Counted from the stretch's first letter, positions 950 to 32,000 are shown. The stretch: 32,000 nucleotides of DNA from Pirellula staleyi DSM 6068 (GCA_000025185.1 CP001848.1:2640001-2672000); one strand, 5' to 3'. Translations and numbers: made by a program. The notes: generated by a model from the sequence alone, not told the origin.

Positions 950-1150
950 CCTCGGCAACGAGCAAGATATCCTGGCTCGGGTTCGACCTACTTGCCCGAC
1001 CTTCCCGGCGCTTCGTGCGAAGCATCAGTGGCCATCTGCTGGGCGTTCGTCCCCCTTACAGTCGCGGGGCGGCGGAAGTTTTTCACTTCGCTTCCCTCGC
1101 TTGCTGCCGTACAACGGGCCCCGTCACGTTTCCCACCTACGGATGGACGA
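950..1150 (-). promoter_or_regulatory. Cobalamin (B12) riboswitch in the 5' leader of the TonB-dependent receptor
   Basis: The minus strand reads GGTGGGAAA...AGGGAAGCGAAGTGAAAAACTTCCGCCGCCCCGCGACTGTAAGGGGGACGAA...GGCCACTG...CGGGAAGGTCGGG...CCCGAGCCAGGATATCTTGC. These are the conserved core, the GCCACTG element and the B12 box, in the canonical order. Confidence 0.9.
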
Positions 1151-6916: not shown

Positions 6917-7330
6917 CTAAGTGGCGGCGTGATGCGACGAGCTGGCGGAATCATGCTGAGCAATCGCTGCCGATGGGAGGGGATGCTTCAGGGCGTGGTA
7001 CATAGCGAGTTCACGCTCCATCGTCTCGCGGTCGATCGCTCCGAGCTTGATCAGCAGCTCGCCAATCGGGGTTTGGCGTTTGCGCTGTTGCTGCAGCAGT
7101 TCCAGCACTTGCGGCTGGGTCAGGTAGCCCAAGTCGACCGCCACCGATCCAAACGCTTCGTCTTCGAGGTTTTGCGTATTGAGGATGTCGAACAGCTGTT
7201 TCATGTTGATGAAACCGGCTTCTACCGCCAAACGGCCGATGGGGGTTCGCTCGCGAATCTGTCGGTCGAGCGCTTCCACCACGTGAGCTGTCGAAACGAG
7301 CTGTTTGGCAACCAAGTATTTTCCGAACAT
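6917..7330 (-). CDS. Small protein built of four MshEN/GspE-N-terminal-like 24-residue units
   Basis: 137 aa. The units FGKYLVAKQLVSTAHVVEALDRQ, PIGRLAVEAGFINMKQLFDILNTQ, AFGSVAVDLGYLTQPQVLELLQQQ and PIGELLIKLGAIDRETMERELAMY are each separated by exactly 5 residues. Confidence 0.75.
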   Translation of the reverse strand: MFGKYLVAKQLVSTAHVVEALDRQIRERTPIGRLAVEAGFINMKQLFDILNTQNLEDEAFGSVAVDLGYLTQPQVLELLQQQRKRQTPIGELLIKLGAIDRETMERELAMYHALKHPLPSAAIAQHDSASSSHHAAT

Positions 7331-7634
7331 CGTGCACCTCGCCTGGGGATCTCAATCGAACATGCGGACAAACAGGTCGGGCGAATCCTCACCCGGCGAT
7401 TCGCCTGCAAAGCTGGCCAACCACCCGAAAACCTAGGTCACCGTGCGACGGTGCGCCGCCCAATTTGCCGCAAAGCGCCTGAACTCGACCATTTCGGCCC
7501 TGACGCCCCGCAGAAATGTGCTGTAAGTTGTTTTCTGATAGAGGTTTAGGTGTGTCGGTGCCGGCTCAGAAAAACGCCAGTCCAAGGGCTAAGCCAGGAA
7601 GAAGATCGAGCCGCTGAATCTCAAGCGAGCGCAT

Positions 7635-7669: not shown

Positions 7670-7838
7670 CTGTTTTGTGAGGTGCCTGGCAAACTCCCCA
7701 AACGGAGTTGCTGGCGTCTGATGGAGGCTCGTAGCTGCCGGATAGTAAAAGTCGAACGAGCGACTTAAGTCTAGCGAGAGCAACTACTTACCACTCGATC
7801 GAGCACCCCTGGGAGTGCTGATCTTGATCACCATCGAG

Positions 7839-7922
7839 TGCGGGCAAGAGGACTTGAACCTCCACGACCTTTCGGCCACAAGAACCTGAATCTTGCGCGT
7901 CTGCCAATTCCGCCATGCCCGC
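7839..7922 (-). tRNA. tRNA-Leu (anticodon CAG), class II with long variable arm
   Basis: I folded the 84-nt cloverleaf by hand. Acceptor stem GCGGGCA/TGCCCGC. Anticodon stem CAAGA/TCTTG with loop TTCAGGT. Variable arm GGCC-GAAA-GGTC. T arm GGAGG-TTCAAGT-CCTCT. Discriminator A. CCA is not encoded. Confidence 0.93.
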
Positions 7923-7964
7923 AGCAGATCGTCTGAACGTTTCCGCTCAGCGAGTAGCCACACA

Positions 7965-7994
7965 GATATACCTTACGACAATTGGCACCCGCAA
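7965..7994 (-). promoter_or_regulatory. Putative sigma70-type promoter for tRNA-Leu
   Basis: The minus strand reads TTGCGG-N18-TATATC, about 40 nt upstream of the tRNA 5' end. Pattern match only. Confidence 0.3.
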
Positions 7995-8084
7995 GGGGTT
8001 CGCCGAAATTGAGCCGCAGTTGCCCTCTAAGTGTTGCTCTCGACGCTGTTTATCGCGAATTTGCGGGGCACCGGCGACGGGCGA

Positions 8085-8414
8085 TTAGTAGCGGGGAACG
8101 GTCGGATCAACCACCTGCGACCAGGCATCGATGCCACCCGCCATGTTTTGCACGGTCTCGTATCCCTGCTGACGGAGCCACTGCGTGACCCGCATGCTCC
8201 GGCCGCCGTGATGGCAATGGACCACAATGCGGCCCCCTTGATGCGGCGCAATCTCGGCCAAACGGGCCGGGATCTGCTGCATCGGAATCAGCGTCGAACC
8301 AGCAATGCGGCAGTGCGCGAACTCATTTTCCTCGCGGCAATCAATCAGCAGTAGCGGCTGACCATCTTTTTGCATCGCGGCCACCGTTTCGACATCAACT
8401 TCCAGCGGCGTCAT
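8085..8414 (-). CDS. Rhodanese-domain sulfurtransferase
   Basis: 109 aa. It has the active-site loop VHCHHGGRS (CX4R) and the typical LIDCRE..EF..GHI-like context (LLIDCREENEFAHCRIAG). Confidence 0.9.
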   Translation of the reverse strand: MTPLEVDVETVAAMQKDGQPLLLIDCREENEFAHCRIAGSTLIPMQQIPARLAEIAPHQGGRIVVHCHHGGRSMRVTQWLRQQGYETVQNMAGGIDAWSQVVDPTVPRY

Positions 8415-8539
8415 TCGGCTCAGTTCCTTGATTTAGCGGCACTCGGGGGATCGTTCACGCGAGCTACACCATACCCGGTGCTGCGGGGGCTCGGACAGCC
8501 CCGCTGGGCGTGACGACAATCGGACTATAATCAACCACT

Positions 8540-22060: not shown

Positions 22061-23233
22061 TTACTCGTCGCGGCCGATGCGCGAGCGTTTACGCGACGAA
22101 CGTCGTGTACCCTTCACGCCCCGCTTCTTCTTCCGCTTGATCGAATCGCCGGAGCTCGAGGGTTTCTTCACCTCTTGAATCAGCAGCGAATGCCAGCCGG
22201 TGGCGTAGGTCTCAAAGCCGGGCGAGAGAGCATGCGCGACGCAGCAATTGCGGCTTCCGACATTCGTCACGACAAAATCTTTGGCCTTCGCAAACAGCTG
22301 ACCACGTTCCGAAAAATCGATCGTATCGCCGAGAATTCGGTTCCGCGAATCGGCAAGCACCGTTCCACCATCGTCGACAATGCACACCCGCGTGCGGCTC
22401 TTTTCTTCAGCCGTCAGCGAGACGCCGTTGACGATCGTTTGCGCGAGCCCTTCCCAGTTGAACACAACACCCAGCACGCCAATCGGCTTGCCATTCACGT
22501 CGCCACCTTCGCGCACGCAGCACGAATAGACCACCGTGTATTTGTCGTTCACCAGCGGACTGCGGTGCACACTCTCAAAACCAAACTCTTTGCCGCTGCG
22601 AGTCCGCAGGGCACTCTGAAACCAAATGGCGTGCGAATGTTCGGTTCCCATCGAACGGTAGAGATCGGGGCGGCCATTGGCCACAATCTTGCCGGAGAGA
22701 TCGCACAGCACGAGATCGAAATAAACGGTGTACGAATCGAGGATCACGCCGAGTCGTTTCGAAGCATGATCGAAAGCGGCTGGACTTCGCTCGGTCAGCG
22801 CGGTGACGAGGCTGGCATCGGTCGCCCACCAGCGAACATCGCACGAACGCTCGTAGAGGTTGCGATCGATCAGGTCGATGTTCATCAGCGCGATGTCGGA
22901 GAGTCGTGTGCCGTTGAACTCTGTGCCCATCCGCGTGCTGACGTTGCCGATGCGGGTCAGGGTCCGTCCGCTACGACGCTTCAGGTTCGAAACCACTTTG
23001 GCACTGGTGTTCGAGAGGCCGGCGATTTCCATCGCCACGATGTTGAACGCTTTGCCCGCTTCACCTGCCCGGGCAGCTTCGATCCGTGCATTGAGGGCCA
23101 GCACGCGAATCTGATCGTTCACGTTATCAATGGCGGCAATGGTGCGATCCATGACCGTGTCGAGCTCACGCGTGAGGTCGGCAACAGCTTCAGGGTTGAA
23201 CTTCTTTTGAGCGTCAGCCGTGGCAGCGGTCAT
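22061..23233 (-). CDS. Soluble MCP-like protein: minimal N-terminal signalling-hairpin tip plus C-terminal putative sensor domain and basic tail
   Basis: IRVLALNARIEAARAGEAGKAFNIVAMEIAGLS, at about aa 42-74, is the conserved MCP tip. There is no TM segment or HAMP domain. GGAAG lies 8 nt upstream of ATG 23233. Confidence 0.85.
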   Translation of the reverse strand: MTAATADAQKKFNPEAVADLTRELDTVMDRTIAAIDNVNDQIRVLALNARIEAARAGEAGKAFNIVAMEIAGLSNTSAKVVSNLKRRSGRTLTRIGNVSTRMGTEFNGTRLSDIALMNIDLIDRNLYERSCDVRWWATDASLVTALTERSPAAFDHASKRLGVILDSYTVYFDLVLCDLSGKIVANGRPDLYRSMGTEHSHAIWFQSALRTRSGKEFGFESVHRSPLVNDKYTVVYSCCVREGGDVNGKPIGVLGVVFNWEGLAQTIVNGVSLTAEEKSRTRVCIVDDGGTVLADSRNRILGDTIDFSERGQLFAKAKDFVVTNVGSRNCCVAHALSPGFETYATGWHSLLIQEVKKPSSSGDSIKRKKKRGVKGTRRSSRKRSRIGRDE

Positions 23234-23551
23234 AACGGCAGCTTCCTATCGAAAATCGGTTGCGAATGACCCACATCGAAGTGGGTGGTACGAGTAACGA
23301 ATCCCCCGCATGGCGGCAACGGACGCCACACACGCAAGTCAGGCAACCGTAGCTTGCAAAAAGTGCGCAAGGGTTGTCGAAGCAGATCTGAGCCGAGAAT
23401 TTTCGGACTTTCTCAGCTTTTACACGTTCTTCACAAACGGCGACCTGGCCTGTCGTGGTCGGTAAAGCAGGGGGGCGACCTCATCCACTAGCGGTGGCAT
23501 CCAGAACTTCTATCCGGTTTCTGAGGCCGACCTCCACTTTGTTGACGAATT

Positions 23552-23580
23552 GCAACTTGCCACCCCGCTGGCGTGGTCTA
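23552..23580 (+). promoter_or_regulatory. Shared cis-element, copy upstream of cheA
   Basis: TTGACGAAT-N8-GCCAC-CCC-GCTGGCGTG-G-TCTA. It is collinear with the copy at 27510..27544. Confidence 0.4.
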
Positions 23581-23849
23581 AGTTTTCGAAGCTTCGGGCC
23601 CGGAAGCGTTGCTGCGCACTCTCCCGCACACTTGCCGGACCCCAGCCTGCGGATTGACTCAGGGGCAAATCGCTTGCCATTAGAGGCTGCGAAAGCGGGC
23701 CCTATCGCCACCCGGTGCGGCCCCCTGAGACCACTGACTCGTAAGGGTAGAGGACGAGAAAAAAGAGTGCAAAACGACTGTAAAAACGACCAAAACGTCC
23801 GTTTGTCAGCCGTCACTGCCAGCGATGATTTTGTAGCCAGGAACCTGCC

Positions 23850-26615
23850 ATGAATGATGCTGACCAGCAGATTGTGAACGACTTTGTGATTGAAGCGAGC
23901 GAGCACCTCGCGGATATCGAGAACCAGCTCCTTTCGATCGAAGCGAGCGCCGATAGTCCCAACGTCGAACTCGTTCACGAGGTCTTCCGGAACGTCCATT
24001 CGGTGAAAGGGGTTGCAGGGTTTCTCGGGTTTGCATCGGTAGGATCGCTGGCGCATAGCCTCGAAAGTGTCCTCAACATGGTCCGAGGGGGCGAGCTGCG
24101 CCCGCAAGGTGTCGTCATCGAAACGCTCCTCTCGGGGTTCGATACGCTGCGACAAATGGTCCACCATATCGACCGGGTCGACGACTTTGATGTCACCGGG
24201 CATGTCAACCAGCTGCAGGAAATCATGAACGTCGCCAAGATCGCCCCATCCGCTGGCGAACTTGCCGCCGCAGGCACTTCAGGCGGTTCCGCTGCGAGTC
24301 AGCATCCGCTCGATCTGGCGCAGCAGTTCGTGACCGATTCGGGACTGCAGGCCGATCCCAACGCGATCCTCGCCAGTTTGCGAGAGCAAATGGAGCCGGC
24401 CGCAGCACCGAAAGCGAACGCACAAAGTAGTCAGCAGCCCAAGATCGCATCTGAACCGGCCCCTACCAGCGACGCCGCGATCAACAGCAAGATTAGTGCA
24501 GCTAACGGTGCCGCTGCCGAGTCGACACCGAGCAAAGGGAGTGCGGCCGACGCCAATATTCGCGTTCCGGTGGCGATTCTCGATCGGCTGATGAATCTCG
24601 CCGGCGAACTGGTACTCGGTCGCAATCAGCTGTTGCAGATCTTGCAGAACAAATCGGGCGCGGGGCTCGACACCGTCGGCGCGCGGCTCGATCAAGTCAC
24701 CACCGAGCTGCAAGAGGCGATCATGAACGCCCGCATGCAGCAGGTAGGGACCGTTTTCAATCGCTTCCCCCGCATGGTCCGCGATGTGAGCCAAAAGCTC
24801 GGCAAACAGTGCCGCTTACAACTCGAGGGGAGCGAAGTCGAGCTCGATAAAACGATCCTCGAAAACATTTGCGATCCTCTCACGCACCTCATTCGCAACG
24901 CCATCGATCACGGCATCGAGCGCCCTGAAGTTCGTGCTCGTGAGGGAAAATCAGAAGCTGGCACCCTCACGATCCGCGCGTTTCACCAGGCAGGCAAAGT
25001 CCATATCACGGTGAGTGACGACGGTGGTGGCATTCACCCGCAAAACCTGCGCGATAAAGGTGTCCGCAAGGGTTGGTTTAGCGCCGAGCATGCCGCTTCG
25101 CTCTCCGATCGCGAAGCGCTCCGGCTGATCTTCCGCCCTGGTTTTTCAACAGCCGAAGTGGTCACCGAAGTGAGTGGCCGCGGCGTTGGCATGGATGTTG
25201 TCAAAACCAATATCGAAAAACTAGGGGGGACGGTAGAAGTCGACAGTACACCTGGCGCGGGGACGACCGTGCATGTGAAACTTCCCCTCACACTGGCCAT
25301 CATTCCGTCGCTGATCGTTGGCAGCTGTGGCGAGCGTTATGCCATTCCCGAAAGCTCGATCATCGAGCTCGTCCGCTTCACGCCGGGCGATAAGAGCATG
25401 CGTGTCGAACGTTTCCAGGGTGCCGAAGCGCTCCGGCTGCGGGGAACACTCTTGCCACTCGTTCGTTTGAGCTCGCTCCTATCGACCAGCTCGAAGAAAA
25501 CGCCGATTGCGACCGATACTTCGCGGGCTCACAACATCATTGTGGTCGAAGGGGGAGTCGTTCGTTATGGGATTGTGGTCGATGCGGTCCTCGACCCCGA
25601 GCAGATCGTCGTGAAACCACTGGGGCGGCACATCAAGAGCTGCCGCTGTCTGGCTGGTGCGACGGTGCTCGGCGATGGACAAGTCGCCTTTATTCTCGAT
25701 ATTCCTGGGATCGCAGCGCATGCGTCGCTCGTTGCCGGGGAATCGCTCGAGGCCGAAAATCGCCGCTTTGCCACACAAGACACTGCCGAAGAAACGCAAA
25801 CCATTTTGCTCTTCCAAGGGCTGCGCGGCGATCTGTTTGCCGCCCCCATGGCGATGGTCTCGCGCATTGAAAAGATTGGCCGCGAGCAGGTCGATCGCGT
25901 CGAGTCGCGACTCTTGCTGCAATACCGTGGCGGCACACTCCCACTGGTTCAGCTCGAACCAGGGACCCAGCGCGAGGAGCTTCCCGAATCGGTCTACGTT
26001 CTCGTCTTCCAAGTGAAGGGTTACGAGATGGGACTGATCGTGCCACTGATCGTCGACATCTGCGATGCCTCGACGGCGGTCGACACGCGAGTCTATCGCG
26101 AGAAGGGAACGATGGGGGTGCTGGTGATCGAGGGACGCGTGGTTCGTTTGCTCGATGTGCATGAACTAGCAGCGAGCATGGCTCCGCCGCAGGCCGACAA
26201 TCCACGTCTGCAAAATTCGCCGCTGCAGGGGCGTCGGCTTACCGTGTTGATGGCCGAAGATTCCCCATTTTTCCGCGAGCAGATCGGCAAATTCCTCACC
26301 GAAGAGGGACACACCGTGATTGCCTGCGAAGATGGTTTGGAAGCGTGGGAAACGTTGCAGCAACCCTCGCTGCAAATCGACCTGGTGGTGACCGATGTCG
26401 AAATGCCGCGCATGAATGGTTTTGAGTTCTGCCGCAAGATTCGCTCGTCGGCGGCGCATCGGCATCTCCCTGTGATCGCCCTCACTTCGCTGAACGAAGC
26501 CAAGCATGTTCGCATGGGAGCAGAGGCGGGGGTGAGCGACTATCAAGTGAAGATGGATCGCGACAAACTGCTCGCCGCGATCACCAAGTTCATGGCCCAA
26601 ATGAAATCGACGTAA
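23850..26615 (+). CDS. cheA: Chemotaxis histidine kinase CheA fused to a CheY-like receiver, with two CheW-like (P5) domains
   Basis: The Hpt region reads FRNVHSVKGVAGFLGF and the dimerisation region IRVPVAILDRLMNLAGELVLGRNQL. The HATPase region reads DPLTHLIRNAIDHGIE...GRGVGMDVVKTNIEKLGGTVEVDSTPGAGTTVHVKLPLTLAI. Two CheW-like blocks follow, then REC (VLMAEDSPFFRE...DLVVTDVEMPRMNGFEF...PVIALTS...K). Confidence 0.95.
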   Translation: MNDADQQIVNDFVIEASEHLADIENQLLSIEASADSPNVELVHEVFRNVHSVKGVAGFLGFASVGSLAHSLESVLNMVRGGELRPQGVVIETLLSGFDTLRQMVHHIDRVDDFDVTGHVNQLQEIMNVAKIAPSAGELAAAGTSGGSAASQHPLDLAQQFVTDSGLQADPNAILASLREQMEPAAAPKANAQSSQQPKIASEPAPTSDAAINSKISAANGAAAESTPSKGSAADANIRVPVAILDRLMNLAGELVLGRNQLLQILQNKSGAGLDTVGARLDQVTTELQEAIMNARMQQVGTVFNRFPRMVRDVSQKLGKQCRLQLEGSEVELDKTILENICDPLTHLIRNAIDHGIERPEVRAREGKSEAGTLTIRAFHQAGKVHITVSDDGGGIHPQNLRDKGVRKGWFSAEHAASLSDREALRLIFRPGFSTAEVVTEVSGRGVGMDVVKTNIEKLGGTVEVDSTPGAGTTVHVKLPLTLAIIPSLIVGSCGERYAIPESSIIELVRFTPGDKSMRVERFQGAEALRLRGTLLPLVRLSSLLSTSSKKTPIATDTSRAHNIIVVEGGVVRYGIVVDAVLDPEQIVVKPLGRHIKSCRCLAGATVLGDGQVAFILDIPGIAAHASLVAGESLEAENRRFATQDTAEETQTILLFQGLRGDLFAAPMAMVSRIEKIGREQVDRVESRLLLQYRGGTLPLVQLEPGTQREELPESVYVLVFQVKGYEMGLIVPLIVDICDASTAVDTRVYREKGTMGVLVIEGRVVRLLDVHELAASMAPPQADNPRLQNSPLQGRRLTVLMAEDSPFFREQIGKFLTEEGHTVIACEDGLEAWETLQQPSLQIDLVVTDVEMPRMNGFEFCRKIRSSAAHRHLPVIALTSLNEAKHVRMGAEAGVSDYQVKMDRDKLLAAITKFMAQMKST

Positions 26616-26671
26616 GTTGGCGAGCCTGAGTTTTTTGCGCAAGTGTGGCTGAGTGAAGAGAGAATGAGATC

Positions 26672-27160
26672 ATGCAAACGATGATTGCCAAGCCCCAGCA
26701 AGTTGCTCGTCAAGAGCTTGAACTGGTGACCTTTCGTGTCGGCAAGTTGACCTTTGGAATCGAAATCCATCACGTCAAAGAGATCAACTCGCATCTGGTG
26801 CCGACTCGTGCGCCGCATGCGCATCGCGCGGTGCTGGGAGTGATGAACCTGCGCGGCGACGTGATTACTGTCGTCGATTTAGCCACGCTGCTGAAGCTTC
26901 CGCAGCGCTCCGAGGGAGCACGCGGCAAGGGAGTGATTGTCTCGGTGGAAGGTGAGCTGGTGGCGGTGGCGGTCGATCAGGTGGAAGATGTGGTGACGCT
27001 CGAGCGTCACGAGCTCCATCCTCTGCCGCCGAACTTTCGTCTCGGTGATTCGCGCGTTTACCAAGGGGTTTATCCAACGGAGCATGGCCTGGTGGTGCTG
27101 CTCGATATCGTCGAGGCGATGGAAATGCACCTGCAACGCGAATCGAGCAGCCGCTCGTAG
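26672..27160 (+). CDS. cheW: Chemotaxis coupling protein CheW
   Basis: 162 aa. The product reads LVTFRVGKLTFGIEIHHVKEI...AVLGVMNLRGDVITVVDLATLL...VAVAVDQVEDVV...GLVVLLDI. Confidence 0.93.
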   Translation: MQTMIAKPQQVARQELELVTFRVGKLTFGIEIHHVKEINSHLVPTRAPHAHRAVLGVMNLRGDVITVVDLATLLKLPQRSEGARGKGVIVSVEGELVAVAVDQVEDVVTLERHELHPLPPNFRLGDSRVYQGVYPTEHGLVVLLDIVEAMEMHLQRESSSRS

Positions 27161-27367
27161 TCGTCCGTCGATCAATCAAGGTCGGGTTGATAGGGTGCCA
27201 CTGGCATCTTGCCAACGCAGATGTTGGAATCGATGTTTTTGGCGAAATCTGCTTGAAATAGAGAGTCAAATAACACTTCTCACTGAGCAGAGCCGCGTGG
27301 CACACTGGATTACAGCCTAGTCAATGCTGCCTGACATCATCGACCGACGAACTAGTAGATGATGTTC

Positions 27368-27399
27368 GCTAACAGGCCATGTTGCTAACAGGTCGTGTT
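27368..27399 (+). repeat. 16-bp tandem direct repeat in the flp upstream leader
   Basis: GCTAACAGGCCATGTT / GCTAACAGGTCGTGTT, 14 of 16 identical. Confidence 0.7.
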
Positions 27400-27509
27400 A
27401 AGGAATGGAAACAGCGGCGCTGCTGAAAAACGTTTTGCCATAGGTCAAGAGTTGGTGAATGATTTTTGAGGACTTTGCCTCGAAGTATCACGTAATTTCT
27501 AAAAAACTC

Positions 27510-27544
27510 TTGACGAATCAATCGCCACGCTGGCGTGCAATCTA
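27510..27544 (+). promoter_or_regulatory. Shared cis-element, copy upstream of flp
   Basis: TTGACGAAT-CAATC-GCCAC-GCTGGCGTG-CAA-TCTA. The TTGACG also forms the right arm of a 10-bp inverted repeat (27442..27451 / 27505..27514). Confidence 0.4.
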
Positions 27545-28204
27545 TCGCTTAGGTGAGCTATCTCGCTCGTAGCGCTTCTCCGGGGTGGGGAAGTGCCGGT
27601 GGTGACGATTATGTCATCCCACGCTCCGGAAGTAGATCGAAAAAATTTTCGAACTCCTGCTGAATTGCTCAAGCAGTTCGTTTGACACCTGAGGAAACCG
27701 ACCTAGGTTTTCGTTGTACGGATGAGCGGAGTGAATCGGCTCTTCGTGCATGAAATGAGAGTGCCTGGGGAGGCGTGTTCGCTGCGGTATTTCCGCTGTG
27801 AAATGCGTCTCACTTGGTGCTTCTGATTTCGGGCGGCCTGCCGCCTCACATCCTCGATAAGGGCAAACCGGTAGAGATGCCGGGGCGCAAAGCAAAGGGC
27901 CTTTGGCCCGCTGGGATCACGCAAGTGAACTGGTGGGCCGATGGTAGCCTGGCTGCCGAAAGGGTGTCGACGAGTTGGAACTACATCGCACAGCGATGTG
28001 CCTCCAGTTACGAGACGACCTGACAGGCGAGATAACGAGAACGAGGCGAGCTTCGTCTGTTGTTTTGGATTCCGGTGAGCTGGTTTGGCAGGCCGGAGCG
28101 GGCCATGTTTGGCACGCTTACTACCAGCTACAGGGGTCCAGTGTGTTCTGTCGTGTCGGGTGCTTAGCGACTACGTTCGCAGCACGTAACTGAGGAGGAA
28201 GCCA

Positions 28205-28393
28205 ATGAAGAATCTCGCTCTGAAAGTGCAACGTTTCCTGGTCTCGGAAGATGGTCCAACTGCAGTGGAATACGCTGTGATGTTGGCGCTCATCGTGATC
28301 GTGTGCCTCACGGCCATTCAGGCCATCGGCACCAACGCCAACGCGACGTTCAACAGCGTCGCCACCAAGCTCTCGAGCGGTGGCGGTTCGTAA
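28205..28393 (+). CDS. flp: Flp-family type IVb pilin (copy 1)
   Basis: 62 aa with the processing motif G/PTAVEYAVMLALIVIV. The RBS GAGGAGG lies 6 nt upstream. Confidence 0.93.
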   Translation: MKNLALKVQRFLVSEDGPTAVEYAVMLALIVIVCLTAIQAIGTNANATFNSVATKLSSGGGS

Positions 28394-28400
28394 TGTCGTG

Positions 28401-28424
28401 CGAGCTTGCCGCGAGGCAAGTTCG
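28401..28424 (+). other. Stable GNRA-loop hairpin immediately after flp copy 1
   Basis: CGAGCTTGCC-GCGA-GGCAAGTTCG forms a 10-bp stem with one G-U pair. No U tract follows. Confidence 0.5.
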
Positions 28425-28732
28425 ATGAGCGCATCCATTGCTTTGAGATGCGACACAATCCCCGGTGGTCGGTGGTAGAGCCTGTCTCTGCTACCGGCCA
28501 CGGGCTTGTGACTCGGGCCGGGAAACAGTCCTGGCGAGTCACCCACGTTGTCCTGAGGTAGTGCTGGCGCGATCAAGTTCGCAGCCGCTTACCGCACCCC
28601 ACGCTGGCGACGCGATTCGATTCGCCTCAGCCGCGCGAATTTCAAAACTGATCGGAGCTATTCGGGAGCTCGTCGATGTTCGACCAGCACGAATTGGCAC
28701 CGCCACAAACACGTGAATGAAGAAGAATCAAC

Positions 28733-28921
28733 ATGACTGCCATTGCCAGCAAAATCGGTCGTTTTCTGAAGAGTGAAGATGGTCCAACCGCCGTGGAATA
28801 CGCTGTGATGCTCGCGCTCATCGTGATCGTGTGTCTCACCGCCATCCAAGCGATCGGCACCAACGCCAACGCCACGTTCAACAGCGTTGCGACCAAGCTC
28901 TCGAGTGGCGGCGGTTCGTAA
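28733..28921 (+). CDS. flp: Flp-family type IVb pilin (copy 2)
   Basis: 62 aa. The product is identical to copy 1 from residue 14 onward, and the leader differs. Confidence 0.93.
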   Translation: MTAIASKIGRFLKSEDGPTAVEYAVMLALIVIVCLTAIQAIGTNANATFNSVATKLSSGGGS

Positions 28922-28976
28922 TCCATCCACTGGCCTGGCGACTTGAAGGCACATAACCGAAGTGGAGACTCCTGCG

Positions 28977-29084
28977 ATGTACTGTGTGATTCCAAGCGAT
29001 TTACTTGCTGGCGGACTAGAACTCGTCTGCTGCGGATTCACGCTCGTGGCAGCGGTCGTCGGCTATGTGCTGAGCGCACGATAG
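28977..29084 (+). CDS. Candidate 35-aa hydrophobic peptide (not in ORF track)
   Basis: My own translation gives MYCVIPSDLLAGGLELVCCGFTLVAAVVGYVLSAR. GGAG lies 9 nt upstream of the ATG. It sits between flp copy 2 and cpaA. Confidence 0.3.
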   Translation: MYCVIPSDLLAGGLELVCCGFTLVAAVVGYVLSAR

Positions 29085-29182
29085 GCCTCACCAACCTTAG
29101 CAAATATCAAGCAACGTCGACCCCCGGATGACAACCGCTGCGAGCTGCTATTTCGCTCGCACGCTTCGACCGGGCGACTTGC

Positions 29183-29201
29183 TTGACGATCAATCAACAC
29201 G
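29183..29201 (+). promoter_or_regulatory. Variant of the TTGACGA(A)TCAATC box upstream of cpaA
   Basis: TTGACGATCAATCAACACG compared with TTGACGAATCAATCGCCACG at 27510 gives 17 matches with one 1-nt gap. Confidence 0.3.
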
Positions 29202-29222
29202 TTTCACGGGGAGAGAATAGCG

Positions 29223-29792
29223 ATGCTCGATGCGATTTACGCAGTGGGTTCGGCCATGGCCGAACATTGGACCGTTTGGCTGGTGACCATTGTTTTGATC
29301 CTGGCTGCGGTGATCGACGGTTTTGAATTGAAGGTGCCCAACTGGATCACCTTTCCATTCATCATCAGCGGCTGGATCTACAGCGTGGCTGCGTTCGGCT
29401 GGGAAGGGCTCGGCTGGAGCCTCGTCGGAACGGTGGTTGGTTTGGCGCTGCTGCTTCCCGCCTATTCGATCGGCGGCATGGGAGCAGGGGACGTGAAACT
29501 GCTAGCAGGTGTCGGAGCCTGGATGTATGGAACGCACACGTTCTATGCCTTCTGTGCCTCGGCGGTGGTGGGAGCCCTCTGTGCTGTCATCATGGTGCTG
29601 GCAAAACGAGCCTGGAAGAAACACTCGGATCAGTTCTGGCTGATCCTCAATGAGATCATGGTGATTGGAAATCCTGAGAAGCTGGCAGTGATTGCAGCGA
29701 AGCGTAAGCCTTCGATGCTGCTGCTCCCTTATGGAATTCCAATCGCAATCGGCACGATTGGCTACTTTTTGGTCCGAGGCATGTTGGTGTAA
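29223..29792 (+). CDS. cpaA: Prepilin peptidase CpaA/TadV (A24 aspartic peptidase)
   Basis: Polytopic membrane protein. The first catalytic Asp context is AAVIDGFELKVPN and the second is GGMGAGDVKLLAGVGAW. Confidence 0.92.
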   Translation: MLDAIYAVGSAMAEHWTVWLVTIVLILAAVIDGFELKVPNWITFPFIISGWIYSVAAFGWEGLGWSLVGTVVGLALLLPAYSIGGMGAGDVKLLAGVGAWMYGTHTFYAFCASAVVGALCAVIMVLAKRAWKKHSDQFWLILNEIMVIGNPEKLAVIAAKRKPSMLLLPYGIPIAIGTIGYFLVRGMLV

Positions 29793-29835
29793 GAGCCACC
29801 TGCCGTAGACCGGGTAATCTGGGAGGGGTTTGTCG

Positions 29836-30306
29836 ATGGCAACGATGAGGCAGCCCGAGCAGAGTTTGCAGGTCCAGTTACCGAAACTGGATAAACCTTA
29901 CCGGTCGTACCGAAGAAATCGTCGGGCGGCGGCCACAGTCGAGTTTGCTGTGGTCGCACCGATCTTCTTTCTTCTCGTCCTCGGCATGATCGAGTACGGG
30001 CGGATGGTGATGGTCCAACAGGTCATCACCAACGCTTCGCGAGAAGGGGCAAGGACGGCTGTGCTCGACGGGACGACGACGGCGGAAGTAACTGCCACAG
30101 TCAACTCCTACCTCGCTAGCGGTTCGATTTCAGGCGCGACTGTAGTGGTCACACCTAATCCTCCGACGAATGCCGATGGTGGGGATCCAGTGACTGTGAC
30201 GGTTTCTGTTCCTTTCAGTCAAGTCAGTTGGCTCCCGTCGCCAATGTACTTAGGAGGGAAGACTCTCTCGTCGACGACCGTAATGCGCCGCGAGTCGGTG
30301 CAGTAG
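29836..30306 (+). CDS. tadE: TadE-like pseudopilin
   Basis: RRAAATVEFAVVAPIFFLLVLGMIEYGR is the TadE N-terminal motif. ATG 29836 is preceded by GGGAGGGG. Confidence 0.88.
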   Translation: MATMRQPEQSLQVQLPKLDKPYRSYRRNRRAAATVEFAVVAPIFFLLVLGMIEYGRMVMVQQVITNASREGARTAVLDGTTTAEVTATVNSYLASGSISGATVVVTPNPPTNADGGDPVTVTVSVPFSQVSWLPSPMYLGGKTLSSTTVMRRESVQ

Positions 30307-30400
30307 CTAGCAACACCAGCGACTAGCTCTTTACGGCCGTCCAGATGGTTCAGCGTCTCATCATTTGTGTTTGCTGGCGGCAAGCGAAGGAAACCTCGCA

Positions 30401-31519
30401 ATGCGGATGAAGTCTCTAATCCTGATCTTCATTGCCCTAGGCTGCGGTCTGGTCGCTTCGATCGGCATCAGCCAGGTGATGGAGCGTGGTGGCAGCGGAG
30501 CTGCGCCAGCCATGGAGATGGAGCAGATCCTCGTTGCGCTCGCCGACATCGATATCGATGCCAAGCTGAACGCCGAGAATGTGCAACTCGAAGAGTGGCC
30601 CAAATCCAAGGTTCCCGAGGGGGCGGTTCGCTCGCTCGATGAAGTCGAGGCCAAATTCGCTCAGCAGCGATTCTTTAAAGGAGAGCCGATTCTCCTGGCC
30701 AAGATCAGCGACCAAAACGTCAACCCGATGATCCGCATCCCGGAAGGTTACCGGGTCATGCCGGTGAAAGTCGACGATGAAACGGTGCTGAAAGCCATTT
30801 CGCCCGGCGATCGCGTCGACGTGATGGTGTTCCTCCGCCGTAGCGAAGAAATCAAGCAGACCGCGACCTATACGATTCTGCGTAATGTCCGTGTGTTCGC
30901 TGTGAATTCCAATACCGAGCGCGATCTCGAGACCAAGGGGCAAGACGTCAATGCTCGCACCGTGTCGCTGATCATTAAGCCACAGCAGTCGCGAGAACTC
31001 GCGGTCGCTTCGCAGATTGGCAAGATCATCCTGACGATGCGTCGCCCCGATGAAACCGACGAAGCGGGCGAAGGTGAAGACGTAACTCCTATCACGGAAA
31101 TCCTTTCGGGCAAAGCATCGCTTGGCGATGAAGAGCAGCCCGCACCAGCGGCACCAGTCGCTGCTCCGGCACCGATCAACAGCTTTCTGACCGAAGTGAC
31201 CACGCCTGCTGCTCCAGCCCCCGCACCAGCGGCTGCTGTCCCAGCAAAGCCTGCCTTCACGATGCACATCTTTGGCCCTGCTGATGTGAAAGCCTACGAA
31301 TGGCAAGACACCAAGCAGCTCCCAATCGAAACGAGCCTGGGTGGCCAGCCCACACCTGTGGTCGAGCCTGCACCAGCCCCAGTGGCTCCGGCTGCTCAAC
31401 CAACGCCAGCTGCCGAGCCAACTTTGGAAGAACCAGTATCAGCCGAGCCAGTGACCGTGGAGCCTGTGACCGAAGAAGCAGGCACGTCTCCACCTGCGTA
31501 TGCACCACCTGTCGACTAA
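30401..31519 (+). CDS. cpaB: Flp pilus assembly protein CpaB/RcpC with long Pro/Ala-rich C-terminal extension
   Basis: MRMKSLILIFIALGCGLVASIG provides the N-terminal TM segment. The SAF-like region reads ILVALADIDIDAKLNAENVQLEEWP. The core reads GYRVMPVKVDD...GDRVDVMV...VRVFAV. Confidence 0.9.
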   Translation: MRMKSLILIFIALGCGLVASIGISQVMERGGSGAAPAMEMEQILVALADIDIDAKLNAENVQLEEWPKSKVPEGAVRSLDEVEAKFAQQRFFKGEPILLAKISDQNVNPMIRIPEGYRVMPVKVDDETVLKAISPGDRVDVMVFLRRSEEIKQTATYTILRNVRVFAVNSNTERDLETKGQDVNARTVSLIIKPQQSRELAVASQIGKIILTMRRPDETDEAGEGEDVTPITEILSGKASLGDEEQPAPAAPVAAPAPINSFLTEVTTPAAPAPAPAAAVPAKPAFTMHIFGPADVKAYEWQDTKQLPIETSLGGQPTPVVEPAPAPVAPAAQPTPAAEPTLEEPVSAEPVTVEPVTEEAGTSPPAYAPPVD

Positions 31520-31760
31520 CGAGTGGAGCGATAGCGTCAGCGAACCGACACCACGACATTCACGACCGAGCATCCTGAGAGACCACACGAGCCAAATCAC
31601 CTTCCCACACTCGATTTTTCATCTGCAGCAATATGCGAGAGGCCTTGGAGGGCGAGCTTGCATGTACTACGGACGCGAGTGATACAGCACACCCTGCCAA
31701 GCCGATACGAACAAGACAGTCCCGATAGCGCGTTTACAACGCATGCAAGGAAGCATAAGG

Positions 31761-32000
31761 ATGGCCATCGCAAACTCTCCAGGGCGCTTGCAAAAGCGAT
31801 ACTCCCTGCTGGCAGGATTGCCCGCGCTACTCGTGGCACTCACGTTTGCCGCACCTGCGTTTTCGCAGCCAATGAGCCTTCCCGGAGTTGGCCCCATGCC
31901 AGCCGCCGTGAAGTTCAAGGTCCAAGGACCTGCGGAAAAGCTCGAAATGACGGTCAACACCAGCCGCGTCGTCGAATTTCCGTTCGACGTCCCGAAAATG
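31761..32000 (+). CDS. cpaC: CpaC/RcpA secretin, N-terminal part (runs off the right edge)
   Basis: My own translation gives MAIANSPGRLQKRYSLLAGLPALLVALTFAAPAFSQP... then KLEMTVNTSRVVEFPFDVPKM, which resembles the pilus-formation N-terminal region. It is in the expected position after cpaB. An alternative ATG lies at 31743. Confidence 0.7.
   Translation, partial: MAIANSPGRLQKRYSLLAGLPALLVALTFAAPAFSQPMSLPGVGPMPAAVKFKVQGPAEKLEMTVNTSRVVEFPFDVPKM

What the first reader, a model, noticed from the sequence alone, without database searches (positions are those of the whole stretch)
22061..32000. Orphan chemosensory module joined head-to-tail to a Flp/Tad pilus operon
Three chemosensory genes sit together: a soluble MCP-like gene (22061..23233, minus strand), a CheA-REC hybrid (23850..26615) and CheW (26672..27160). 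After an AT-richer leader of about 1 kb, the same strand continues with flp, flp, a small ORF, cpaA, tadE, cpaB and cpaC. No cheB, cheR, cheZ or stand-alone cheY is visible in the window. The module therefore looks like a non-adapting, alternative-function Che pathway rather than a flagellar one. Chemosensory control is well established for type IVa pili (Pil-Chp). I know of no characterised Che-type pathway dedicated to Tad/Flp pili. Adjacency plus a shared cis-element (separate finding) make this the best candidate in the window for an undescribed regulatory system. The functional link itself is inference from gene order.
Basis: partly seen in the sequence, partly recalled or inferred. Interest (0 to 1): 0.7.

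Follow-up and report, generated by a model that had tools for sequence, protein, structure and literature searches.

The report
Chemosensory trio beside riboswitch-controlled Flp operon
A compact three-gene chemosensory module and a Flp/Tad pilus operon do sit side by side in this planctomycete, but the pairing holds only in its closest relative, and the pilus operon has its own c-di-GMP riboswitch, so they look like two separately controlled units rather than a new Che-to-Tad pathway.

Summary
These are a soluble MCP-like gene (22061-23233, minus), CheA-REC (23850-26615), CheW (26672-27160), a roughly 1 kb leader, then flp, flp, a small ORF, cpaA, tadE, cpaB and the start of cpaC. No cheB, cheR or cheY is in the window.

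Three results change the interpretation.
1. The leader holds a c-di-GMP-I-clan riboswitch aptamer (27853-27961, 63.2 bits against a gathering score of 59). It is also present before flp in all four related operons examined. A conserved promoter-like site lies between cheW and the aptamer.
2. The divergent trio is kept in every ortholog locus where the kinase side can be read. Tad genes lie nearby only in a congener (same order) and in one other lineage (different order). At least nine lineages have none. Three of four flp-operon lineages have no Che trio upstream.
3. CheA reads Hpt-dimerisation-kinase-CheW-CheW-REC, the architecture typical of the F5 class, which is a predicted flagellar class.

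The receptor is unusual. It has only the roughly 90-residue MCP tip hairpin fused to a cytoplasmic dCache fold, so it cannot adapt by methylation. Its family is large and about 50% identical between bacteria and archaea.

Interest is moderate to low.

The parts
22061..23233 (-). Soluble mini-chemoreceptor. Residues 14-104 form the MCP tip hairpin only. Its second helix runs on, up to residue 137, into a cytoplasmic dCache (tandem PAS-like) domain. A basic, disordered C-terminal tail follows.
   Evidence: Pfam MCPsignal covers only profile positions 36-90 of 172. NCBIfam aligns residues 31-100 to Tar/Tsr positions of about 362-433. The best PDB sequence matches are the T. maritima receptor tip fragments 4jpb and 3ur1. 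The AF2 model has pLDDT 84. Foldseek best matches are the DctB, PctA and Tlp3 dCache domains, E = 1e-11. There is no transmembrane segment.
23234..23849 (.). Divergent intergenic region. It holds a promoter-like site, TTGCCA(23557-23562)-N16-TAAGTT(23579-23584), and the left copy of the shared element TTGACGAAT...CGCTGGCGTG (23542-23575).
   Evidence: The block TTGTTGACGAA.TGCAACTTGCC...CGTGGTCTAAGTTT is conserved with L174. The element has two copies in the window. The promoter reading is inference from the sequence.
23850..26615 (+). CheA hybrid kinase. Domains: Hpt (His50 in HSVKG), linker with no P2 detected, dimerisation, HATPase_c, CheW/P5 (488-624), a second CheW domain (about 655-775), and REC (799-911, Asp849).
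   Evidence: Pfam, sequence. All four tested segments (Hpt, P5, second CheW, REC) are found in 11 of the 12 trio orthologs with a complete CheA. In L011 the second CheW was not detected at the threshold used.
26672..27160 (+). CheW coupling protein.
   Evidence: Pfam CheW, 97.9 bits.
27682..27709 (+). Candidate flp promoter: TTGACA-N16-TAGGTT.
   Evidence: It lies in a block at about 27661-27710 that is nearly identical in L174. This is inference and no transcription start was measured. The consensus scanner did not report it.
27853..27961 (+). c-di-GMP-I-clan (GEMM-I) riboswitch aptamer. The extended P1 spans about 27847-27968.
   Evidence: Rfam RF03167, 63.2 bits against a gathering score of 59, E = 7e-13. 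Homologous aptamers precede flp in L036 (two copies), L174, L175 and L176. The six-sequence alignment shows compensatory pairs.
28041..28066 (+). Terminator-like hairpin followed by a U-rich run. This is a candidate expression platform.
   Evidence: Found by the pattern scan. Stem and T-run are conserved in L174, and the loop has one base change. It is a weak hairpin and its function is untested.
28205..28393 (+). flp1, a Flp pilin with the G/PTAVEY processing motif.
   Evidence: Pfam Flp_Fap, sequence.
28733..28921 (+). flp2. Its mature part is identical to Flp1 and only the leader peptide differs.
   Evidence: Pfam, repeat D1 at 87% DNA identity, sequences.
28977..29084 (+). Conserved 35-codon hydrophobic ORF between flp2 and cpaA.
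   Evidence: tblastn: 77% to L174, 61% to L176, 40% to L175, where a 35-aa gene is called at the same place.
29223..29792 (+). cpaA, the prepilin peptidase.
   Evidence: Pfam Peptidase_A24.
29830..30306 (+). tadE-like pseudopilin.
   Evidence: Pfam TadE.
30365..31519 (+). cpaB/rcpC.
   Evidence: Pfam RcpC and SAF.
31743..32000 (+). Start of the cpaC secretin gene, cut off by the window end.
   Evidence: 75% identical to the N-terminus of the L174 gene that carries T2SS-T3SS_pil_N and Secretin. The fragment alone has no Pfam match.

Best explanation
Two separately controlled units lie next to each other.

Unit 1 is a three-gene cytoplasmic chemosensory core that is conserved in Pirellulaceae.
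- The receptor is a soluble protein, presumably a homodimer as other MCPs are. Its dCache domain is expected to bind an intracellular small molecule or cofactor.
- The signal would travel along the continuous helix (residues 61-137) into a minimal tip hairpin of about six heptads per arm.
- With CheW and the two CheW-like domains of CheA, the hairpin would set CheA autophosphorylation at His50.
- The phosphoryl group would go to the fused receiver (Asp849), and probably also to a receiver protein encoded elsewhere.
- The receptor has no methylation helices, so there is no CheB/CheR adaptation. The fused REC could serve as a phosphate sink.
- The CheA architecture (two CheW domains plus REC) is that of class F5, so the most likely output is motility-type control. 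This step is the least certain.

Unit 2 is the flp/tad operon.
- It has its own promoter-like site.
- Its 5' leader carries a c-di-GMP-I-type aptamer followed by a terminator-like hairpin.
- Pilin and assembly gene expression would therefore be set by a cyclic dinucleotide signal, most likely c-di-GMP.

The head-to-tail arrangement is a genus-level accident of gene order, not a conserved functional coupling.

What is shown: the domain content, the fold, conservation of the trio, the riboswitch and its conservation, and the lack of conserved adjacency.

What is inferred: ligand binding by the dCache domain, the phosphotransfer route, the output, the promoter and the terminator.
For: Trio:
- Every locus whose receptor is at least 61% identical and whose kinase side is readable has the divergent CheA next door. 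CheW follows wherever the contig reaches that far.
- Hpt, both CheW domains and REC are detected in 11 of the 12 orthologs with a complete CheA.
- The catalytic His, the N, G1, F and G2 boxes, and the receiver Asp, Thr and Lys are all present.

Receptor:
- The tip matches the crystallised CheA/CheW-binding fragments.
- The model shows a hairpin plus a dCache fold.
- CheA-, CheW- or receiver-type genes are the commonest neighbours of the family, in 75 of 174 loci. Other MCPs come second, in 32 loci.

Independence:
- Tad-specific genes lie near the trio only in the window, L174 and L005.
- The flp operons in L036, L175 and L176 have unrelated upstream genes: LPG_synthase plus a tRNA, or HTTM.

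Riboswitch:
-.
- The promoter-like block and the hairpin are conserved with L174.

F5 architecture:
- The second CheW domain scores 41.9 bits on its own.
Against: - The order is exactly kept in the congener L174 (receptor 95%, CheA 81%, Flp1 100% identical).
- Filament genes recur loosely near the module. L005 has tad genes on both sides. L169 has two T2SSE ATPases. In L036 an orphan paralog of the receptor lies 2.2 kb from the orthologous flp operon.
- No convincing terminator follows cheW, so read-through into the leader cannot be excluded.
- A 26-32 nt element is shared between the cheA upstream region and the flp leader.
- The F5 assignment rests on domain architecture only. No class HMM or tree was available. 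F5 clusters normally carry cheY, cheB and cheR, which are absent here.
Confidence: 0.55

Rival explanations
1. The trio is a dedicated, non-adapting Che-type pathway that controls Tad/Flp pilus expression or activity, at least in this genus. It would be co-regulated with flp, or co-transcribed into it.
For: - Same strand, head-to-tail, with the order kept in L174.
- The shared element TTGACGAAT...CGCTGGCGTG lies upstream of cheA and in the flp leader (2 copies, 0 in 100 shuffles). The right box also precedes flp2.
- Filament genes lie near the trio in L005 and L169, and near a paralog in L036.
- No clear terminator follows cheW.
- A full-text search found no paper describing a Che pathway for Tad pili.
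Against: - At least nine ortholog lineages have no pilus genes within 10 kb.
- Three of four flp-operon lineages lack the trio.
- The flp leader has its own conserved promoter-like site and riboswitch.
- The CheA architecture is F5-like, not ACF or Tfp.
- The right-hand box of the shared element is not conserved in L174 at either site, and the element is absent from all other loci.
- Type IV filament genes are very common in planctomycete genomes, so loose proximity is weak evidence. This rests on general knowledge. DUF1559 and N_methyl genes turn up by chance.
Confidence: 0.12
2. Indirect, Wsp-like coupling. The CheA-REC module phosphorylates a receiver-GGDEF or receiver-EAL protein encoded elsewhere. 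This changes c-di-GMP, and the flp riboswitch reads that change.
For: - The flp leader carries a c-di-GMP-I-type aptamer.
- CheA-REC hybrids that drive a diguanylate cyclase are known from the Wsp system of Pseudomonas (established knowledge).
- The trio encodes no output protein locally.
Against: - No GGDEF, EAL or PilZ gene appears next to the trio in the ortholog loci whose neighbours carry Pfam calls.
- The two-CheW architecture is not that of ACF-class kinases such as WspE.
- Any c-di-GMP source in the cell would feed the riboswitch, so the riboswitch does not point to this module in particular.
Confidence: 0.08
3. The trio is independent of the flp operon, but its output is neither flagellar nor pilus-related. 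It would be a cytoplasmic metabolic or redox sensor that feeds an unknown response regulator, in the manner of an 'alternative cellular function' system.
For: - There is no cheY, cheB or cheR in the window or in most ortholog loci.
- The receptor cannot adapt by methylation, which is odd for gradient sensing.
- The dCache domain has invariant Cys131, Arg134, Trp135, Trp136 and His348, and near-invariant Cys284, Cys331 and His334. This suggests a bound cofactor or metal.
- Many family members are orphans far from any CheA. CheA lies within 10 kb in only 17 of 60 loci with full flanks.
- Planctomycetes carry many ACF-class CheAs.
Against: - None of the CheAs with two CheW domains in the data set of PMC10782961 was ACF.
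- A stand-alone receiver gene lies beside the trio in L008 and L011, which fits a CheY-type output.
- In Verrucomicrobia and Thaumarchaeota, family members sit near CheA and CheW genes together with further MCP genes or receiver genes, as in motility-type che clusters.
Confidence: 0.22

Closest known systems
F5-class chemosensory systems (Azospirillum brasilense Che1, Rhodospirillum centenum Che1, Caulobacter crescentus CheAI cluster)
   Same: The CheA has Hpt, dimerisation, kinase, two CheW domains and a C-terminal receiver, with no P2 detected by Pfam (PMC10782961).
   Different: No cheY, cheB, cheR or cheD is in the cluster. The partner receptor is a roughly 12-heptad soluble protein, not a full-length transmembrane receptor with methylation sites. 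Class membership was not tested with class HMMs.
Cytoplasmic chemoreceptors with a C-terminal sensor domain (for example Helicobacter pylori TlpD). This comparison is from my own knowledge.
   Same: Both are soluble MCPs with the sensing domain placed after the signalling hairpin.
   Different: Here the signalling domain is cut down to the tip alone (profile positions 36-90 of 172). The sensor is a dCache fold, which is normally periplasmic.
c-di-GMP-I (GEMM-I) riboswitches upstream of pilus and adhesion genes
   Same: An aptamer of the same Rfam clan sits in the 5' leader of a pilin operon on the same strand. It is conserved across orthologous leaders with compensatory base pairs.
   Different: The best-scoring model for five of the six copies is the GGC variant (RF03167), just above its threshold. 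The L174 copy scores best with the canonical model. All six copies read CGCAAAGC. By my recollection of the Vc2 numbering, this keeps the canonical A47 rather than the variant G. The ligand and the ON/OFF sense are untested.
Pil-Chp (Tfp class) and Wsp (ACF class) chemosensory systems
   Same: Both have a CheA-REC hybrid kinase and an output other than the flagellar motor.
   Different: The CheA here has a single Hpt and two CheW domains. No pilG/H/I/J, wspR-like cyclase or other output gene is in the cluster. Adjacency to pilus genes is not conserved.
Tad/Flp pilus loci (Caulobacter cpa, Aggregatibacter tad)
   Same: Flp pilins with the G/xxxxEY motif, CpaA, TadE, CpaB and CpaC occur in the usual order.
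   Different: There are two pilin genes with identical mature parts. A conserved 35-codon ORF precedes cpaA. In the relatives the operon ends after cpaE, so cpaF, tadB and tadC appear to lie elsewhere. The leader is controlled by a riboswitch.

Membership tests
Methyl-accepting chemotaxis protein (MCP) | Conserved signalling hairpin tip that binds CheA and CheW | tested here: met
   Pfam MCPsignal 49.6 bits against a cut-off of 34.6. The profile matches the T. maritima tip fragments 4jpb and 3ur1 at E = 4e-16. The AF2 model shows a hairpin at 14-56 and 61 onward.
Methyl-accepting chemotaxis protein (MCP) | Adaptation (methylation) helices and a full-length coiled coil. From my own knowledge, the known classes have 24-64 heptads. 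| tested here: not met
   Only profile positions 36-90 of 172 match. Each arm is about 44 residues, roughly 6 heptads. The ORF cannot be extended at its N-terminus because it already starts at the first start codon after the upstream stop. The best 120 family members are 328-474 aa long, median 367.
Methyl-accepting chemotaxis protein (MCP) | Genomic association with cheA and cheW | tested here: met
   The divergent CheA is present in every ortholog locus with readable flank. CheA-, CheW- or receiver-type genes are the top neighbour cluster, in 75 of 174 family loci.
dCache sensor domain | Tandem PAS-like fold on a long stalk helix | tested here: met
   Foldseek best matches are DctB, PctA, CtaA and Tlp3 ligand-binding domains, E = 1e-11 to 1e-8, target-normalised TM-score 0.6-0.75. 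The Pfam dCache_1 match is below threshold (27.4 against 45).
dCache sensor domain | Extracytoplasmic location between two transmembrane helices | tested here: not met
   No hydrophobic segment and no signal peptide.
CheA class F5 | Duplicated CheW domain, usually with a C-terminal receiver | tested here: met
   CheW at 488-624 and a second CheW at about 655-775 (41.9 bits alone), REC at 799-911. The rule is taken from PMC10782961.
CheA class F5 | Placement by the class-specific profile HMMs or a phylogeny of the dimerisation-kinase-CheW core | not testable with these tools
   No class HMMs or reference sequences were available. The paper's bacterial supplementary table as stored contains no F5 rows, only ACF rows and some F1 rows.
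CheA class F5 | Cluster containing cheY, cheB and cheR | tested here: not met
   None is in the window. None is in the ortholog loci, apart from a lone receiver gene in L008 and L011.
CheA class ACF or Tfp | A single CheW domain, often several Hpt domains, and a non-flagellar output gene or pil genes in the cluster | tested here: not met
   One Hpt, two CheW domains, no output gene. In the data set of PMC10782961, CheAs with two CheW domains were found only in classes F5, F1 and F10.
c-di-GMP-I riboswitch clan (Rfam CL00126) | Covariance-model score above the curated gathering threshold | tested here: met
   RF03167, 63.2 bits against 59, E = 7e-13. Five homologous copies in relatives also pass their thresholds.
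c-di-GMP-I riboswitch clan (Rfam CL00126) | Structure supported by covariation, and position in the 5' leader of the regulated gene | tested here: met
   In the six-sequence alignment, 9 of 32 predicted pairs show changes on both sides, for example GC to AU and AU to CG in the first hairpin. Every copy lies about 150-260 nt upstream of a flp start on the same strand.
c-di-GMP-I riboswitch clan (Rfam CL00126) | Binding of c-di-GMP and ligand-dependent control of expression | not testable with these tools
   This needs in-line probing and reporter assays. A terminator-like hairpin at 28041-28066 is conserved in L174 but is weak.
Tad/Flp pilus operon | Flp pilin with the G/xxxxEY motif, plus the dedicated prepilin peptidase, TadE, CpaB and the CpaC secretin | tested here: met
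   Pfam matches. The motif G/PTAVEY is present. The secretin start is identified through L174. The ATPase and platform genes lie outside the window.
   The order is kept only in the congener L174. Among ortholog loci with at least 5 kb on both sides, 2 of 10 have tad-specific genes. One of four flp-operon lineages has the trio.

The most novel reading that the evidence does not exclude
In this genus the soluble-receptor Che module and the cyclic-dinucleotide riboswitch would act together on the same Flp/Tad operon. The module would feed in either through read-through or shared promoter elements, or through a c-di-GMP enzyme encoded elsewhere. That would be the first chemosensory pathway wired to Tad pili. 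Its receptor would be a minimal MCP with a cytoplasmic dCache sensor that cannot be methylated.
Probability: 0.12. Interest if true: 0.7.

Novelty: new variant of a known kind. Interest (0 to 1): 0.35.

Why it matters
The proposed Che-to-Tad pathway would have been a new kind of pilus control. The comparative evidence argues against it, which saves experimental effort on that idea.

Three things remain useful.
- The Flp/Tad operon family of these Pirellulales is preceded by a conserved c-di-GMP-I-type riboswitch. This gives a direct, testable link between second-messenger level and Tad piliation in a phylum where pilus regulation is little studied.
- The trio is a very compact system of one receptor, one kinase and one coupler. 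It could be used to study how a chemosensory array works with a tip-only receptor and a CheA that has two CheW domains.
- The receptor belongs to a large family with more than 4,500 detected members. It is about 50% identical between planctomycetes, Verrucomicrobia, Xanthomonadales, anammox bacteria and ammonia-oxidising archaea. I found no paper that characterises it, and its ligand is unknown.

Tried and rejected
1. The 364-codon plus-strand ORF at 22175-23269, antisense to the receptor gene, reads as Arg/Gly-rich nonsense. Only the minus-strand frame was scanned against Pfam, and it is the one with matches. Rejected.
2. The 132-codon ORF at 23455-23853, which overlaps the cheA start, has no family match and its composition looks non-coding. 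Rejected as a gene.
3. The 62-codon TTG 'small ORF' at 28943-29131 was replaced by the conserved 35-codon ORF at 28977-29084.
4. I looked for the shared cis-element. One composite element was found, but it is not conserved in L174 or in other loci. The cheA-upstream regions of L001, L004, L005 and L008 do not align with the window.
5. The metagenome scan with the receptor returned almost only distant relatives, with one locus at 61% identity or more, so it added little to the adjacency test.
6. Literature searches:
   - No paper links a Che system to Tad pili.
   - No paper describes the mini-receptor family.
   - The paper that I recall as defining the GGC variant (PNAS 2017, PMC5358364) is not held, so its ligand status could not be checked.
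7. I tried to read the CheA class of Pirellulales kinases from the supplement of PMC10782961. The stored table contains no F5 rows.
8. No second riboswitch copy lies before flp2 in the window, and none lies in the cheA upstream region.
9. Rfam found no riboswitch in the trio loci that lack flp: L001, L002, L004, L005, L007 and L008.

Full report
OBSERVATION

Pfam finds the following on the ORFs:
- 22061-23233(-): an MCPsignal match plus a weak dCache_1 match.
- 26672-27160(+): CheW.
- 28205-28393 and 28733-28921: two Flp_Fap genes.
- 29223-29792: Peptidase_A24 (CpaA).
- 29830-30306: TadE.
- 30365-31519: RcpC/CpaB.

The open frame from 31743 to the window end is the start of the secretin gene. 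It is 75% identical to the N-terminus of the gene carrying T2SS-T3SS_pil_N and Secretin that follows cpaB in the related locus L174.

The stretch from 27161 to 28204 has lower G+C, 0.53 against 0.57-0.60.

Pfam scans of the other scanned ORFs in the window found no CheB, CheR or single-domain receiver. The rest of the window is typical planctomycete content: DUF1559 with N_methyl, BBP7, DUF481, and large DUF11 and SdrD_B repeat proteins.

THE RECEPTOR IS NOT AN ORDINARY MCP

Only residues 29-83 match MCPsignal, at profile positions 36-90 of 172. NCBIfam aligns residues 31-100 to positions of about 362-433 of the E. coli-type receptors, which is the tip. A profile of 31 homologs finds the T. 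maritima tip fragments 4jpb and 3ur1 as the best PDB sequences.

The AlphaFold model (pLDDT 84) shows helix 14-56, a turn, and a long helix 61-137 that leads into two PAS-like modules. Foldseek matches this part to the dCache ligand-binding domains of DctB, PctA, CtaA and Tlp3, with E values from 1e-11 to 1e-8. There is no hydrophobic segment.

The protein is therefore a tip-only hairpin of about six heptads per arm, fused through a continuous helix to a cytoplasmic dCache domain. It has no methylation region.

The family is large, with more than 4,590 hits, and strikingly conserved. It is 50-55% identical between this planctomycete and Verrucomicrobia, Xanthomonadales, Armatimonadota, anammox bacteria, Nitrosomonas and Thaumarchaeota. 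The motif NIDLIDRNLYERSCDVRWWATD is invariant or nearly so. Several Cys, His and Trp residues are invariant or nearly so.

It behaves as a real chemoreceptor. Among 174 family loci, the commonest neighbour cluster holds CheA-, CheW- and receiver-type genes (75 loci) and the second holds other MCPs (32 loci). Many members are nevertheless orphans. Among the more distant members, CheA lies within 10 kb in 17 of 60 loci with full flanks.

THE KINASE

The CheA has:
- the phosphorylatable His in HSVKG (His50);
- intact N, G1, F and G2 boxes;
- a P5/CheW domain at 488-624;
- a second CheW domain at about 655-775, which scores 41.9 bits when scanned alone;
- a receiver with the acidic pair, Asp849, Thr879 and Lys901.

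Pfam detects no P2.

Hpt, both CheW domains and REC are detected in 11 of the 12 orthologs with a complete CheA. In L011 the second CheW was not detected at the threshold used.

The survey of 13,673 CheAs in PMC10782961 states three things:
- 99% of F5 CheAs have the duplication.
- Receiver fusions occur mainly in F3, F5, ACF and Tfp.

By architecture the kinase is therefore F5-like, a class predicted to govern flagellar motility. I could not run class HMMs, so this is an inference from architecture and not a classification.

IS THE TRIO TIED TO TAD GENES?

I collected loci around receptor homologs from genomes, from metagenomes and by exact-protein look-up. I screened them by tblastn with the window's Che and Tad proteins, plus TadZ, CpaF, TadB, TadC and TadG from L005 and the two ATPases from L169.

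All loci whose receptor is at least 61% identical keep the divergent CheA at the same distance. CheW follows wherever the contig reaches that far. These make up about 13 distinct lineages, including Anatilimnocola aggregata and Pirellula sp. SH-Sr6A. The trio is therefore a conserved unit.

Tad-specific genes within 10 kb occur in:
- the window;
- L005, where a different layout has TadE, TadG and TadE downstream of an esterase on one side, and TadZ, CpaF, TadB, TadC, TadE, TadE and TadG on the other;
- L174, found from the pilus side.

L169 has two convergent T2SSE ATPases. At least nine lineages have nothing of the kind.

L174 is a congener. Its receptor is 95% identical, CheA 81%, Flp1 100%, CpaA 90% and CpaB 76%. 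It has exactly the window's order.

Starting from CpaB homologs, the next-closest flp operons are L175 and L176, and L036 was found earlier. They have the same flp...cpaA-tadE-cpaB-cpaC order but unrelated upstream genes: HTTM family proteins, or an LPG_synthase-like protein and a tRNA gene.

L036 does carry an orphan paralog of the receptor (55% identical) 2.2 kb upstream. An opposite-strand gene and a tRNA gene separate it from flp.

The head-to-tail arrangement is thus a genus-level feature. There is some loose recurrence of filament genes near the module, but no conserved linkage. With so few independent lineages, and with type IV filament genes so common in planctomycetes, I do not regard the recurrence as significant.

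THE LEADER

Rfam finds a c-di-GMP-I-clan aptamer at 27853-27961 on the flp strand. It matches RF03167 at 63.2 bits against a gathering score of 59, E = 7e-13.

Homologous aptamers precede flp in every related operon:
- two in L036, one before each flp;
- one each in L174, L175 and L176.

The L174 copy scores best with the canonical RF01051 model. In the six-sequence alignment the core is nearly invariant, and 9 of 32 predicted pairs change on both sides. All six copies read CGCAAAGC. By my recollection of the Vc2 numbering this keeps the canonical A47, so I expect c-di-GMP as the ligand. This is untested. The paper that I recall as defining the GGC variant could not be read.

Upstream of the aptamer, a block of about 50 nt is nearly identical in L174. 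It contains TTGACA-N16-TAGGTT at 27682-27709, a plausible promoter.

Downstream, a small hairpin with a U-rich tail at 28041-28066 is conserved in L174, with one base change in the loop. This is a possible terminator-type expression platform.

The first 270 nt or so after cheW have no counterpart in L174.

The flp operon therefore has its own control region. Read-through from cheW cannot be excluded, because no convincing terminator follows cheW.

THE SHARED CIS-ELEMENT

A composite element, TTGACGAAT-(N9-15)-CGCTGGCGTG, occurs at 23542-23575, about 275 nt before cheA, and at 27510-27537 in the flp leader. These are the only two copies in the window, against none in 100 shuffles. The right box also occurs before flp2.

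In the congener only the left part survives:
- TTGACGAAA before cheA, inside a conserved promoter-like block;
- TTGACAACC in the leader.

The right box is different at both sites. No other locus has the element apart from contigs of the same strain. It is real in this sequence but has little evolutionary support as a regulatory site.

MECHANISM, WITH STEPS MARKED

Shown:
- domain content, fold and intact catalytic residues;
- conservation of the trio;
- conservation of the riboswitch and its position;
- non-conservation of the adjacency.

Inferred:
- The dCache domain binds a cytoplasmic ligand or cofactor.
- The signal passes along helix 61-137 to the tip.
- The tip, CheW and the two CheW-like domains of CheA form a cytoplasmic signalling complex that sets CheA activity.
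- Phosphoryl groups flow from His50 to Asp849 and probably to a receiver encoded elsewhere. A lone receiver gene lies beside the trio in L008 and L011.
- There is no methylation-based adaptation.
- Separately, the flp leader senses a cyclic dinucleotide and controls transcription into flp.

COMPARISON AND NOVELTY

The parts are known kinds:
- a chemosensory core with an F5-like kinase;
- a GEMM-I-type riboswitch before pilus genes;
- a Tad locus.

What is unusual is the tip-only receptor with a cytoplasmic dCache domain, and the fact that it comes with a dedicated kinase and coupler and nothing else. I found no paper describing this receptor family and none describing a Che pathway for Tad pili.

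I rate the finding as a new variant of a known kind. The proposed Che-to-Tad link is unsupported but not excluded, at about 0.12. Overall interest is 0.35.

Noticed in passing
window 965-1097 (-): Cobalamin riboswitch aptamer, 63.9 bits against a gathering score of 31.5. The regulated gene would lie below 965 on the minus strand and may run off the window. No annotated ORF there has a Pfam match.
   Followed up: no
window 7838-7922 (-): tRNA-Leu (CAG). The segments 6990-7342 and 7838-8418 match L174 in inverted orientation only about 1.2 kb from its receptor gene. The window therefore has roughly 14 kb (about 8.4-22 kb) between the tRNA and the trio with no DNA-level match in the part of L174 that was fetched. 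This stretch carries the PolyA polymerase-like gene, a 1277-aa SdrD_B/FG-GAP protein, WD40 proteins, DUF481 and BBP7.
   Followed up: partly
window 28205-28393 and 28733-28921: The two Flp pilins have identical mature sequences, from G/PTAVEY to the end, and differ only in the leader peptide. The DNA is 87% identical over 163 nt. Relatives have two or three flp copies, and L036 has a riboswitch before each of its two.
   Followed up: partly
window 28977-29084 (+): A 35-codon hydrophobic ORF (MYCVIPSDLLAGGLELVCCGFTLVAAVVGYVLSAR) lies between flp2 and cpaA. It is conserved at the same place in L174, L175 and L176. It may be a small membrane component of this Tad system. It has no Pfam family.
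   Followed up: partly
window 22061-23233 (-) and alignment A1: The mini-receptor family is about 50% identical across bacterial phyla and Thaumarchaeota. Cys131, Arg134, Trp135, Trp136, Tyr168, Asp173, Trp204 and His348 are invariant, and Cys284, Cys331 and His334 nearly so. This suggests a conserved cofactor, metal or ligand site in a cytoplasmic dCache domain. Many members come from nitrogen-cycle organisms: anammox bacteria, ammonia-oxidising archaea and Nitrosomonas.
   Followed up: partly
window 27368-27399 (+): A tandem 16-mer, GCTAACAGGCCATGTT followed by GCTAACAGGTCGTGTT, lies in the part of the leader that has no counterpart in L174. Its meaning is unknown.
   Followed up: no
L002 5267-6811 (Pirellula sp. 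SH-Sr6A, CP011272.1): A DDE transposase gene is inserted between cheA and cheW of the orthologous trio.
   Followed up: no
L174 13242-14474; L175 13152-14378; L176 12915-14147: In the relatives, the gene after the secretin is a CpaE/TadZ-type ParA-like protein with an N-terminal receiver-like domain. The operon then ends without cpaF, tadB or tadC. In L005, TadZ-CpaF-TadB-TadC form a separate block. The Tad machinery of these organisms therefore appears to be split over at least two loci.
   Followed up: no
L008 11303-11644 (+); L011 5633-5932 (+): A stand-alone receiver (CheY-like) gene lies directly beside the trio in two ortholog loci. It is a candidate cognate output protein and is absent from the window.
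   Followed up: no
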